NCBI GenBank assembly: GCA_964632315.1
Contig: CAZWEM010000001.1
Span: forward strand, 32,001 to 96,000
Length of the DNA stretch: 64,000 nt
Direction of reading: 5' to 3'
Source: an uncultured archaeon
GTDB lineage: Archaea; Asgardarchaeota; Lokiarchaeia; Sigyniarchaeales; SOKP01
Made by a program: the position numbers and the translations under genes. Below the pieces are notes generated by a model that was given only the letters and a program-made list of their open reading frames with translations, was not told the origin of the DNA and did not search any database. Numbering within the stretch: the first letter of the stretch is position 1; each line of letters opens with the position of its first letter. Positions 14,750 to 16,924 of the stretch are shown piece after piece.

Positions 14750-16068
14750 ATGTCAAAACCTAAAGTTGCAATAATTGGAATAGGGATTACACCTTTTAAA
14801 GCAAGATATTTAGACAAAACCTATTTTGAACTCGCTTACGACGCCACAAAATTGACTTTAGATGATGCAAATAAAAATGGAGCGGAGATAAGCCATAAAG
14901 ATTTACAATCAACAGTATATGGGATATATAACGAGTTATTTGAGAGGCAATTCATGCCGGATATCTTTACTAATAGCTATCTGGGAATGAATGATAAACC
15001 AGGTACAAGAGTAGCGACTGGAGGTGCTACCGGAGGTTATACTGTTAGGATGGCTTATGCTGAAGTTGCTTCGGGATTGTCAGATCTATGCTTATGCCTC
15101 GGTTTGGAAAAATGTAATGATTGTTATGATGATCAAACTGGTGCTACAACACCAGAAGTACTTAACGCCATTGCCTATAGCGCGGATATGACGTATATTA
15201 TATAGTACATCTATATGAGCGGAAGAATATCCGATGGGAAAATACTACTTGGATTTACCAAATATCCCCATTGATGGCAGCCTCATCATACGTGTCAATG
15301 GTAAATGCTCATTATGAAGAATTCGGAAATCCTACTGAGGAACAGATGGCATGTGTTAGTGTAAAAAATCATGGAAATGCAAGGTTGAATCCGAAATCAC
15401 AGTCTCCGATGAAGATTACCGTGGAAGACGTCATGAACTCCCGGATAATATGTTATCCCTTCAAGATGTTAGATTGTTGTTTATATTCGGAAGCCTCAGC
15501 TGCTTTAATACTAGCAAGTGAGGAAAAGGTAAAAGAACTTGGTGTTGAAAAACCAATTTGGATTACAGGTGTGGGCGCAGCTAATACAGATTGCTTCATC
15601 GGGAATCGAGAAGATATGGGCCGTCTTTATTCGAATATTTATGCCGCCAAATCTGCGTATAAGATGGCAGGATTAGATTATAATAATATAAAGCAGCAGA
15701 TCGACTTGGCAGAACTACATGATGCGTTTTCGGGACAAGAAGTCATATCCTATGAAGAGTTAGGATTTGTACCTTTTGGTGAGGGAGGTTCATGGATTGA
15801 AAAGACGTTTGAAAAATCGGGAGAAGGACCATGGATAGATGGAGAGTTGCCCTGTTGCCCTTCAGGCGGGCTTATTGGATGTGGCCACGCGGTGGGCGCT
15901 ACAGGCATTATGAGTACTGGAGAAGCAGCTTTACAATTAAGAAGAGATGCCGGAAAGCATCAGGTACAGATCGAAAAAGGGAGGGCAATTTCTCATTCGA
16001 TTGGAGGACCTGGAGCAGCATATGCTGCTATAATTGTAATGGAAAATGAGGAGGGTCTAAAAAAATGA
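14750..16068 (+). CDS. SCP2-type thiolase-family protein interrupted by two micro-introns; predicted join(14750..15196,15225..15240,15272..16068), 419 aa
   Basis: N-half VAIIGIG, RVATGGATGG, LGLEK; C-half VSVKNH.NA..NP, LDCC, ELHDAF, SGGLIGCGHAVGATG; removing 28+31 nt restores the frame and the D-x3-E-x-P-x-G motif of paralogue 36674-38095. Confidence 0.85.
15197..15224 (+). other. Putative BHB-type mRNA intron 1 (28 nt)
   Basis: 8-bp intron stem UUAUAUAG/CUAUAUGA, 5' bulge AUA, central helix ACGU/GCGG (one A.G mismatch), 3' bulge AAG, exon stem CGGAUAU/AUAUCCG; contains in-frame TAG. Confidence 0.75.
15241..15271 (+). other. Putative BHB-type mRNA intron 2 (31 nt)
   Basis: Central helix UGGG/CCCC (one U.C mismatch), bulges AAA and AUU, intron stem AUA/UAU plus UUGG/CCAA; removal gives GGA A|UG AUG. 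Confidence 0.7.
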
Positions 16069-16556
16069 CGGATTTTCAAGATCACCAAATACGTGATAGG
16101 ATCAAAATAGAGTATATGTACACAATGGGCGGGCAATCAAAATTCTTCATTGAATTAATGAAGAATAAAAAGCTTTTGGGGACTAAATGTAAAAAATGTG
16201 GAAAGACATGGATGCCTCCTCGAATTAATTGTTCTGATTGTTACGAACCCGCTGATTGGATTGAACTTAAACAAACGGGAACGATTGAAGTTAGTACAAT
16301 TGTTTGGTACACTACTTCTGCTTTCATTAAAGCCGTGCCTTACGGAATTGGATTCATAAAACTAGATGGAGCAGAAACTGCTTTGTTTCAAGGAATCTTT
16401 TCCGAGAATTTAGTTCCTTCAAAAATAAAGAAAGGAAAAAGGGTCAAAGCGGTATTTAACAAGGAAAGAGAAGGAAAGATGACCGATTTCTTTTTTGTAC
16501 CAGAAGATGAATATGAAAATTGGATTTCAAAACCAGAATTTGAAGGAGGGATGTAA
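16065..16556 (+). CDS. Zn-ribbon/OB-fold (DUF35) thiolase partner
   Basis: CKKC...PPR..CSDC, IKLDGA; ATGA overlap with the thiolase gene. Confidence 0.9.
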   Translation: MTDFQDHQIRDRIKIEYMYTMGGQSKFFIELMKNKKLLGTKCKKCGKTWMPPRINCSDCYEPADWIELKQTGTIEVSTIVWYTTSAFIKAVPYGIGFIKLDGAETALFQGIFSENLVPSKIKKGKRVKAVFNKEREGKMTDFFFVPEDEYENWISKPEFEGGM

Positions 16557-16558
16557 AA

Positions 16559-16924
16559 ATGGCGAAAGCAAAAGAGAAGTTAAATGCTATAGTAGATAAG
16601 ATCAATTCTAATCCTAAGGCTCAAGCTGTTTTTGTAACTAATATCACAGGAAAAGATGTTGATTGGGAGATGTCATTCCAGTTTAATCTTGATAATGAGA
16701 ATCCCTTCTACTTAGAAATTAAAAGCAAGGCTGCTCATATTATAGTGGGGACAAAAAATGATGCTGAAATTGTTATGTCAGGGAATCCTGATGCTATAAT
16801 AAAAATCTGCGAAGGGAAGGGAGATTTTACCCACGCAATATCTCGTGAACATATCACTGTCGAAAAAGGAAAGGTTATGGATGTAATCCGCCTAACGAGA
16901 GCAATTACAATTGTGTTAAAATAA
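16559..16924 (+). CDS. SCP2 sterol-carrier-like protein
   Basis: FQFNL...FYLEI......GT...AEI.M.G...........F..A....ITV..G pattern; operon context. Confidence 0.7.
   Translation: MAKAKEKLNAIVDKINSNPKAQAVFVTNITGKDVDWEMSFQFNLDNENPFYLEIKSKAAHIIVGTKNDAEIVMSGNPDAIIKICEGKGDFTHAISREHITVEKGKVMDVIRLTRAITIVLK

What the first reader, a model, noticed from the sequence alone, without database searches (positions are those of the whole stretch)
15197..15224. Intron 1: near-canonical BHB with an in-frame stop
Exon stem C15183-U15189/A15227-G15233 (7 WC pairs); central helix ACGU/GCGG (2 WC, 1 U.G, outer A.G); bulges AUA (15195-97) and AAG (15223-25); 8-bp intron stem closed by UACAU. Canonical cuts give TAT|GAA. 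Sliding by -1 creates TAA and by +1 loses the conserved Glu, so the register is well constrained. Retention terminates translation at TAG 15203.
Basis: partly seen in the sequence, partly recalled or inferred. Interest (0 to 1): 0.85.

Follow-up and report, generated by a model that had tools for sequence, protein, structure and literature searches.

The report
tRNA-type mini-intron in Asgard thiolase gene
A 28-base hairpin that breaks a thiolase-like gene of a Loki-type (Asgard) archaeon has the shape and exact borders of an intron cut by the tRNA-splicing enzyme, so the mRNA almost certainly has to be spliced, which the papers I could search confirm for only one archaeal protein gene (cbf5).

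Summary
Window 15197-15224 is a 28-nt insert in a thiolase-like gene (14750-16068, +) of a Promethearchaeota (Loki-type Asgard) MAG.

- **Borders:** about 95 intron-less orthologues lack exactly these 28 bases, and no other border fits. The borders equal the canonical BHB cuts, between bulge nt 2 and 3.
- **Conservation:** six distinct alleles from independent MAGs and metagenomes keep the fold (96% of cells paired, against 29-57% when slid). One G-C becomes A-U, and stem and loop lengths vary.
- **Second intron:** a 31-nt BHB intron (15241-15271) follows a 16-nt micro-exon. Removing both gives one open frame of about 420 aa.
- **Selection:** interrupted alleles are saturated at synonymous sites (pS 0.72-0.77) but have dN/dS of about 0.03, so this is not a pseudogene.
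- **Wider pattern:** orthologues carry similar introns at eight positions, and the same genome splits LeuRS-like and acetyl-CoA-synthetase-like genes the same way.
- **Machinery:** the genome encodes EndA alpha and beta-like subunits and RtcB.

No RNA data covered the junction, so splicing is inferred (about 0.88). The central helix is relaxed (3 pairs plus A.G). The scan's earlier notes report such introns in many other Asgard genomes.

The parts
14750..15196 (+). Exon 1 of the thiolase-like gene (149 codons, ends ...ADMTY)
   Evidence: ORF list and translation. Pfam Thiolase_N, weak. Aligns codon for codon with intron-less orthologues.
15183..15189 (+). 5' strand of outer exon helix h; pairs with 15227-15233
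   Evidence: 7 Watson-Crick pairs. In the MFE and the RNAalifold consensus. Invariant in all intron-bearing alleles. The full 7-bp potential is present in only 1 of 95 intron-less alleles.
15191..15194 (+). 5' strand (exon) of central helix H; pairs with 15219-15222
   Evidence: A.G mismatch, C-G, G-C, U.G. The three pairs are invariant in 6 alleles. The Thr codon is ACG in all intron-bearing alleles, against 7 of 95 intron-less ones.
15195..15197 (+). 5' bulge AU|A; predicted cut between 15196 and 15197
   Evidence: 3-nt bulge in the MFE. The border equals the alignment gap. Cutting between bulge nt 2 and 3 is the rule stated in PMC2738675.
15197..15224 (+). Intron 1, 28 nt, contains the in-frame TAG 15203-05
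   Evidence: Absent from about 95 orthologues, with unambiguous borders. A DNA contig of an intron-less relative joins exactly 15196|GAATAT (table 7). Single copy in the genome.
15198..15218 (+). Intron hairpin h' (8 bp, 15198-05 with 15211-18) and loop UACAU
   Evidence: Across alleles the stem is 8-11 bp and the loop 5-10 nt. G-C becomes A-U, U.G becomes U-A, A-U becomes G.U.
15219..15222 (+). 3' strand (intron) of central helix H
   Evidence: GCGG; GCGA in allele L103, which changes only the unpaired position.
15223..15225 (+). 3' bulge AA|G; predicted cut between 15224 and 15225
   Evidence: The same AA|N 3' bulge is seen in most other introns of this gene family and in the LeuRS and ACS introns.
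15225..15240 (+). 16-nt micro-exon (GAA TAT CCG ATG GGA A = E Y P M G + first base of M)
   Evidence: Matches the orthologue sequence EYPMGM. Its 5' part forms h of intron 1 and its 3' part forms H of intron 2.
15241..15271 (+). Intron 2, 31 nt, relaxed BHB (H = U.C mismatch plus 3 G-C; bulges AA|A and AU|U; weak outer helix)
   Evidence: Register ranks 1 of 95 and restores ...EYPMGMMAASSY. Present in all 9 contigs that carry intron 1, and in L021, which carries an unrelated intron at this site but no intron 1. An X4 contig of an intron-less relative joins ...ATGGGAA to 15272.
15272..16068 (+). Exon 3 (C-terminal thiolase domain), stop overlapping the start of the DUF35 gene
   Evidence: Pfam Thiolase_C_1, 1.2e-24. 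88-94% amino-acid identity to orthologues. After removing both introns there is one open frame of 421 codons.
16065..16924 (+). Downstream DUF35 (OB/zinc-ribbon, 16065-16556) and SCP2 (16559-16924) genes of the same operon
   Evidence: Pfam. The ATGA overlap with the thiolase stop is seen.

Best explanation
Window 15197-15224 is an archaeal bulge-helix-bulge (BHB) intron inside the coding region of a thiolase-like gene.

Proposed mechanism: in the pre-mRNA, exon bases 15183-15194 pair with micro-exon bases 15227-15233 and with the intron's 3' end (15219-15222). The intron's own hairpin stacks on top. This presents two 3-nt bulges four base-pair steps apart. The (alpha-beta)2 tRNA-splicing endonuclease cuts after U15196 and after A15224. 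RtcB then joins ...ACG UAU to GAA UAU... and probably circularises the 28-mer. A second intron (15241-15271) is removed in the same way, and the mRNA then encodes one ~420-aa protein. Unspliced RNA stops at UAG 15203.

Shown here: the fold, its conservation, the exact borders, selection on the split gene, and the presence of the enzymes.

Inferred: the cutting and joining themselves.
For: 1. **Fold.** Found by RNAfold and, de novo, by RNAalifold on 7 alleles.
2. **Borders.** About 95 orthologues at roughly 75% nt and 90% aa identity lack exactly these 28 nt. The borders cannot slide, and they coincide with the canonical cut sites. The register ranks 1 of 95. A BHB this good at a fixed register has a genome-wide frequency of 0.0015.
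3. **Conservation.** Six distinct intron-1 alleles from independent MAGs and JGI metagenomes have 96% of cells paired, against 29-57% when slid. Three pairs changed on both sides. The stem grows from 8 to 11 bp by matched insertions, and loops vary freely.
4. **Selection.** Between intron-bearing alleles pS = 0.72-0.77 and pN = 0.07-0.09, so dN/dS is about 0.03. Removing the BHB-defined introns gives intact ~420-codon frames in win, L056, L044, L021 (4 introns), L013 and L019.
5. **Same design elsewhere in the gene.** 34 insert instances at eight positions of this gene all have H of at least 3 of 4 pairs and 3-nt bulges. In nearly all of them the ORF-restoring register ranks 1-2 of 95.
6. **Same design elsewhere in the genome.** A LeuRS-like gene is split with HMM coordinates 1-76 | 77-779. 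An acetyl-CoA-synthetase-like gene is split with 3-288 | 290-453. Both sit at perfect BHBs.
7. **Machinery.** EndA catalytic subunit (best PDB match: chain B of crenarchaeal EndA entries 3p1z and 3ajv), a second EndA paralogue that by my reading of its sequence lacks the catalytic His, and RtcB. Asgard EndA is reported as the (alpha-beta)2 type with the loop that allows relaxed motifs (PMC5829648).
8. **Real DNA.** Contigs from two different studies carry both inserts (records 9 and 13).
Against: There is no direct RNA evidence. The only RNA run that held the locus covers 14840-15040 and not the junction.

The motif is relaxed. The outer pair of the central helix is A.G (A.A in L103), and G15190 and A15226 are unpaired, so the 3' bulge sits in a 2x5 loop.

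The exon helices do not vary among intron-bearing alleles, so they offer no covariation. All seven alleles share one origin of the intron-bearing patch, so they are not independent samples.

The z-score of the single-sequence fold is modest (-2.4).
Confidence: 0.88

Rival explanations
1. The gene is a pseudogene. The 28-nt and 31-nt inserts are inactivating insertions, and the hairpin and BHB likeness are incidental.
For: As annotated, the frame is broken by a stop at 15203 and a shift. No RNA evidence of repair exists.
Against: Alleles carrying the same inserts have diverged to synonymous saturation, yet keep dN/dS at about 0.03 and intact frames once the inserts are removed. The stop/start overlap with the DUF35 gene is kept. 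The insert's fold is conserved with compensatory change. The same design splits a LeuRS-like and an ACS-like gene.
Confidence: 0.04
2. EndA cuts the BHB, but the result is mRNA cleavage (down-regulation) or a separately used 151-aa product. Productive exon ligation does not occur.
For: Cleavage and ligation are separate steps, and ligation was not observed here. BHB sites in Haloferax also act in a 5' UTR (PMC7714728).
Against: Only exact joining at the BHB cuts restores the conserved ...TYEYPMGMM... sequence. The downstream exon has no independent reason to stay under selection in that frame. RtcB is present.
Confidence: 0.05
3. The ribosome skips the insert by programmed translational bypassing or frameshifting, as in T4 gene 60 or the 'byp' elements of yeast mitochondria.
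For: The gap is short, holds a hairpin and has a stop just after the take-off region. Yokobori 2009 notes that cbf5 introns were once mistaken for frameshifts.
Against: There are no matching take-off and landing codons (UAU before the gap, GAA before the resume site). Intron 2 and several orthologue introns split a codon (phase 1 or 2), which hopping cannot mend. All sites share BHB geometry with cut sites in the bulges, which bypassing does not require.
Confidence: 0.02
4. The insert is an assembly or sequencing artefact, or DNA that the same strain also holds in excised form.
For: The genome is a MAG of 119 contigs with 8.6% estimated contamination.
Against: The insert is present in contigs of separate studies (X2 and X4), in 4 other MAGs and in 4 JGI metagenome contigs. 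No joint or deletion form was seen at 90% likeness or above (tables 4 and 5). The intron-less contigs seen differ in their flanking bases, so they come from other strains.
Confidence: 0.01

Closest known systems
BHB intron in the cbf5 (pseudouridine synthase) pre-mRNA of Crenarchaeota (Watanabe 2002; Yoshinari 2006; Yokobori 2009, PMC2738675)
   Same: A short intron inside a coding region. The BHB is relaxed ('unconventional'), with cuts between bulge nt 2 and 3. The host has a hetero-oligomeric EndA. Presence and absence vary among relatives.
   Different: A different gene (a metabolic thiolase-like gene) and a different phylum (Promethearchaeota/Asgard). Here there are two introns 16 nt apart with a micro-exon, eight intron positions in one gene family, and signs that the intron-bearing patch moved between alleles. 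Splicing of cbf5 was shown experimentally; here it was not.
Non-canonical and multiple BHB introns of archaeal tRNA genes (Marck & Grosjean 2003; Asgard census, bioRxiv 10.64898/2026.10.13.758758)
   Same: The same motif, a size range that includes these introns, and the same enzymes. Introns persist only where exon sequence can supply half of the motif, and they are gained repeatedly.
   Different: The host RNA is an mRNA. [quoted passage not shown] UAU CC), so synonymous sites are recruited.
Intron in the 5' UTR of Haloferax volcanii HVO_1309 (PMC7714728)
   Same: A BHB in an mRNA, cleaved by EndA, with a circular intron detected.
   Different: It lies in the UTR and does not restore a reading frame.
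HAC1/XBP1 unconventional mRNA splicing in eukaryotes (my own knowledge, not tested here)
   Same: A small intron (26 nt in XBP1) whose removal shifts the frame. It is cut at stem-loops by a non-spliceosomal endonuclease and joined by the tRNA ligase (RtcB in animals).
   Different: The endonuclease is Ire1 and not EndA/TSEN, the recognition motif differs, and the splicing is stress-regulated.

Membership tests
Archaeal BHB (EndA-type) intron | [quoted passage not shown] | tested here: met
   Bulges 15195-97 and 15223-25. The helix has 3 pairs (C-G, G-C, U.G) plus an A.G mismatch at the outer position. It is therefore met in relaxed form and not in the strict form.
Archaeal BHB (EndA-type) intron | Flanking helices h (exon-exon) and h' (intron) | tested here: met
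   h has 7 Watson-Crick pairs after one G.A mismatch; h' has 8 bp. Both are kept in 6 alleles.
Archaeal BHB (EndA-type) intron | Cuts between bulge nt 2 and 3 give the true exon junction | tested here: met
   The predicted junction TAT|GAA equals the sequence of about 95 intron-less orthologues, with no alternative register. The cutting rule is as stated in PMC2738675.
Archaeal BHB (EndA-type) intron | Structure conserved among relatives, with compensatory change | tested here: met
   96% of cells paired, against 29-57% when slid. Three pairs changed on both sides. 7 of 500 shuffles reach the covariation score. The sample is small and the alleles share one origin.
Archaeal BHB (EndA-type) intron | Host encodes a splicing endonuclease able to take relaxed motifs, and an RtcB ligase | tested here: met
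   Two EndA paralogues, one catalytic (alpha-like) and one beta-like. RtcB scores 568 bits. Acceptance of relaxed motifs by the Asgard (alpha-beta)2 enzyme is taken from PMC5829648 and was not assayed.
Archaeal BHB (EndA-type) intron | Intron is excised and exons are joined in RNA (spliced mRNA, circular intron) | tested here: inconclusive
   The one RNA run that holds the locus covers only 14840-15040. No joint was seen.
Programmed translational bypass element | Matching take-off and landing codons flanking the gap, with the gap between whole codons | tested here: not met
   UAU against GAA at intron 1. Intron 2 and the introns at sites E and G split codons.
Repeated mobile element (MITE-like) | Multiple similar copies in the genome | tested here: not met
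   Introns 1 and 2 have no other match of 18 nt or more in the 4.45-Mb genome.

The most novel reading that the evidence does not exclude
Asgard (Loki-type) archaea routinely splice mRNAs with the tRNA-splicing machinery, and these mini-introns behave as population-level genetic elements. Here an intron pair travels together with roughly 110 nt of flanking exon, as one patch, between thiolase alleles that are otherwise about 78% identical. This looks like homologous recombination with co-conversion. The result is genes with several introns, a 16-nt micro-exon and eight intron positions in one gene family: a prokaryotic, spliceosome-free form of 'genes in pieces' in the closest known relatives of eukaryotes.
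Probability: 0.5. Interest if true: 0.9.

Novelty: new variant of a known kind. Interest (0 to 1): 0.8.

Why it matters
In the papers I could search, splicing of an archaeal coding sequence by the tRNA endonuclease is confirmed for one gene only, cbf5 in Crenarchaeota. A second mRNA case lies in a 5' UTR.

This locus extends that picture in several ways:
- An ordinary metabolic gene of an Asgard archaeon needs two such splices, 16 nt apart.
- Its orthologues carry introns at eight positions.
- Essential-type genes of the same genome are split in the same way.

If RNA data confirm it, three things follow. Gene callers miss or truncate such genes in Asgard genomes. Exon synonymous sites are under RNA-structure constraint. 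And intron gain, loss and lateral spread in protein genes can be studied in prokaryotes that sit next to the origin of eukaryotes.

Tried and rejected
**RNA evidence.** One search for runs and one laying of reads. Only one metatranscriptome held any part of the locus, and its single contig (14840-15040) stops short of the intron. This gave no verdict either way.

**Genome-wide screen by BHB score plus open frames.** I looked for BHB-scoring sites with long open frames on both sides. Counts at the true register equalled counts at decoy registers (for example 321 against 299-361), because junctions of neighbouring same-strand genes swamp the signal. Adding a 'no start codon' filter did not help. 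I dropped this as a census.

**Paralogue-spanning filter.** This filter gave 12 candidates. Two were confirmed by contiguous HMM coordinates. At least one other (C16:6487-6522, joined to an MDFELTEEQK start) looks like a plain gene junction.

**Rfam.** No family in the window at gathering score, and only a chance-level hit (E = 0.85) near the introns.

**ARAGORN on the window.** No tRNA found.

**Other readings rejected.** Pseudogene, bypassing, repeated mobile element and assembly artefact (see rivals). A self-splicing group I or II intron is excluded by size (28 nt).

**Intron 2 outer helix.** I checked whether removing intron 1 improves it in the canonical register. The score did not change (12 to 12). 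This test reaches only 8 pairs outward, so it does not address longer-range helices.

**Protein searches.** I did not run the large protein searches to look for a spliced product, because joined exons cannot be submitted and the k-mer search had already found no RNA contig over the junction.

Full report
**What is there.** The window lies in a 4.45-Mb, 119-contig MAG. Its close relatives are labelled Promethearchaeota/Promethearchaeia, the Loki-type Asgard archaea.

On the + strand, 14750-16068 encodes a thiolase-fold protein (Pfam Thiolase_N, Thiolase_C_1). A DUF35 gene and an SCP2 gene follow it. As it stands, the gene is broken. The N-terminal frame ends at TAG 15203-05, a third frame reads EYPMG, and the C-terminal frame opens near 15271.

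**The observation.** RNAfold's minimum-energy structure of 15175-15245 shows these elements (-16.3 kcal/mol, z = -2.4):
- a 7-bp exon helix;
- a 3-bp central helix;
- a 3-nt 5' bulge;
- an 8-bp intron hairpin with a 5-nt loop;
- a 5-nt unpaired stretch on the 3' side.

The motif is therefore a relaxed BHB and not a strict one.

The geometry is the right one: on each strand the bulge lies 3' of the central-helix segment. Cutting between bulge nt 2 and 3 is the rule stated for cbf5 in PMC2738675. It gives intron 15197-15224 and the junction TAT|GAA.

**Comparative test of the borders.** Orthologues of 88-94% amino-acid identity but only about 75% nucleotide identity were fetched from same-genus genomes and from public MAGs. 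In the alignment of 99 genes, about 95 lack exactly the 28 bases 15197-15224, and they read ...ACN TAY GAR TAY CCN ATG G....

The bases on either side of each border differ, so the gap cannot slide. The alignment-defined borders equal the BHB-defined cuts. Among 95 neighbouring registers and lengths, that register has the best BHB score. A BHB of this score at a fixed register occurs at 0.15% of all positions and lengths in this genome.

A DNA contig of an intron-less relative in run X1 runs ...15196 straight into GAATATCC (table 7).

**Conservation of the fold.** A pattern search found the same intron in four other MAG contigs and four JGI metagenome contigs. That gives six distinct alleles, with introns of 28, 30, 31, 34 and 35 nt.
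- Three pairs changed on both sides (for example G15205-C15211 becomes A-U).
- U.G becomes U-A and A-U becomes G.U.
- The stem lengthens from 8 to 11 bp by matched insertions, while the loop varies from 5 to 10 nt.
- RNAalifold predicts the same structure de novo.
- The one change in the central-helix strand (GCGG to GCGA) hits the unpaired position.

The exon helices do not vary among these alleles. They are, however, unusual against the intron-less alleles:
- the full 7-bp outer helix is possible in only 1 of 95 intron-less alleles;
- the three codon choices that build the motif are rare in intron-less alleles (Ala GCG 12 of 95, Thr ACG 7 of 95, Pro CCG 6 of 95), yet fixed in every intron-bearing allele.

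The amino-acid motif D-M...E-Y-P supplies a built-in GAUAU/AUAUC complement. That may explain why an intron can live here.

**The second intron and the micro-exon.** Removing intron 1 alone still runs into a stop. A second insert, 15241-15271 (31 nt), is absent from the orthologues. It has a BHB of its own: H is a U.C mismatch plus three G-C pairs, the bulges are AA|A and AU|U, and the outer helix is weak. Its ORF-restoring register ranks 1 of 95.

Allele L044 has a perfect 4-bp H at this site. L021 carries an unrelated intron at the same site without intron 1.

The 16-nt micro-exon 15225-15240 contributes its 5' half to helix h of intron 1 and its 3' half to helix H of intron 2. Both motifs coexist in the fold of 15176-15285. 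With both introns out, the gene is one open frame of 421 codons.

**Not a pseudogene.** Between intron-bearing alleles (win, L056, L044) synonymous sites are saturated (pS 0.72-0.77), while pN is 0.07-0.09. That gives dN/dS of about 0.03, the same as against intron-less alleles. The stop of the thiolase gene still overlaps the start of the DUF35 gene.

**The same design elsewhere.**
- Across the 99 orthologues I found 34 insert instances of 28-35 nt at eight positions. L021 has four of them.
- Every one has a central helix of at least 3 of 4 pairs and 3-nt bulges.
- In nearly all, the register that restores the conserved protein ranks first or second of 95.
- Site E is a textbook hBHBh' (CUGG/CCAG, five outer pairs).
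- The base after the 5' cut is A in all of them.

In the window's own genome, a paralogue-spanning screen gave further cases. Two were checked with NCBIfam:
- a LeuRS-like gene is split at C41:26254-26283, with profile coordinates 1-76 and 77-779;
- an acetyl-CoA-synthetase-like gene is split at C25:788-819, with coordinates 3-288 and 290-453.

Both sit at perfect 4-bp BHBs.

**Machinery.** The genome has two EndA-domain genes.
- One carries the catalytic Tyr/His/Lys context and matches crenarchaeal catalytic subunits best (3p1z_B, 3ajv_B, 7.7e-34).
- The other has, by my reading of the sequence, no His at the matching place, and matches more weakly.
- This fits an (alpha-beta)2 enzyme, the type reported for Asgard archaea and able to take relaxed motifs (PMC5829648).
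- RtcB is present.
- ARAGORN finds only 30 tRNAs, 19 of them with introns. This is in line with the heavily interrupted Asgard tRNA genes described in bioRxiv 10.64898/2026.10.13.758758.

**What is missing.** I found no RNA across the junction. One metatranscriptome held part of the locus, but its contig covers only 14840-15040. DNA contigs from two different studies carry both inserts (records 9 and 13), so the inserts are real DNA. Excision, the cut sites, the order of the two splices and the circular products are all inferred.

**An unexpected extra: a mobile patch.**
- On a tree of the gene with about 200 exon columns around the introns masked, the seven intron-1 alleles fall in at least three well-supported separate places. 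Holding them together costs 324 log-likelihood units (p-AU 1e-30).
- On a tree of only the 121 exon columns around the introns, they form one group.
- Identity between win and L056 is about 0.78 along the gene but 0.97 in the 60-nt window at the introns.
- L110 is 93% identical to the intron-less L011 elsewhere, but switches to the L056 type from about -80 to +30-45 nt around the introns.

The simplest reading is that the intron pair, with about 110 nt of flanking exon, spread between alleles by homologous recombination. Structural constraint on the exon halves of the motif explains only the inner ~15 nt on each side.

Caveats: I named the group after seeing a first tree, L110 alone could be an assembly mosaic, and the alleles are few.

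**Comparison with what is known.** The mechanism is that of archaeal tRNA, rRNA and cbf5 BHB splicing. In the papers I could search, coding-region splicing is confirmed only for cbf5 of Crenarchaeota, with a further mRNA intron in a Haloferax 5' UTR. Introns in other protein genes were 'predicted' only. No paper found describes such introns in Asgard protein genes.

This scan's earlier notes report the same kind of intron in many Asgard genomes, some with RNA support, and in other genes of this genome. I did not check those notes beyond my own LeuRS and ACS cases.

**Verdict.** Window 15197-15224 is a relaxed BHB intron in an mRNA, one of a tandem pair, with about 0.88 confidence that it is spliced in vivo. 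It is a new variant of a known kind.

Noticed in passing
L111:3755-3784 (= G000 C41:26254-26283, minus strand): A 30-nt perfect BHB intron (H UAUG/CAUA, bulges AU|A and AA|A) splits a LeuRS-like gene. The exon ORFs hit leuS_bact profile positions 1-76 and 77-779 exactly. Whether this is the only LeuRS in the genome was not checked.
   Followed up: partly
L112:788-819 (= G000 C25:788-819, minus strand): A 32-nt perfect BHB intron (H CAGC/GCUG) splits an acetyl-CoA-synthetase-like gene at ...CTA|DIGWITGHSY, with profile positions 3-288 and 290-453. The second exon ends at profile position 453 of 629 near L112:150, so a further break may follow.
   Followed up: partly
G000 C7:68694-68721 (-) and C39:19691-19714 (+): Two more BHB-flanked inserts (28 and 24 nt) where a paralogue aligns straight across the predicted junction. 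Not checked further.
   Followed up: no
orthologue loci L013-L016, L019, L021, L034, L045, L046, L049, L053, L061, L077, L081, L083, L084, L090, L091, L095, L098: The same thiolase gene carries 29-30-nt BHB introns at seven other positions. Two pairs of positions lie only 3-4 nt apart. L021 has four introns. Site E (CUGG/CCAG) is strictly canonical.
   Followed up: yes
window about 15115-15310 (exon columns around the introns): The intron-bearing alleles are 93-97% identical here, against about 78% elsewhere. They group together only on a tree of this patch, and monophyly is rejected on the rest of the gene (p-AU 1e-30). L110 is an L011-type gene with an L056-type patch. This suggests lateral spread of the intron pair by recombination.
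   Followed up: partly
window 15024-15050: The protein reads RVATGGATGGYTV at the place where, from my own knowledge, thiolases carry the nucleophilic Cys. It is coupled to DUF35 and SCP2 genes. It may be an aldolase-type or otherwise non-thiolytic member of the fold.
   Followed up: no
whole genome G000: ARAGORN finds only 30 tRNA genes, 19 with called introns, several of which are implausibly long. Many tRNA genes are probably too interrupted to be recognised.
   Followed up: no
all BHB introns examined: The first intron base (third bulge base) is A in every case, and the 3' bulge most often reads AA|N. This may be a sequence preference of this lineage's endonuclease.
   Followed up: no
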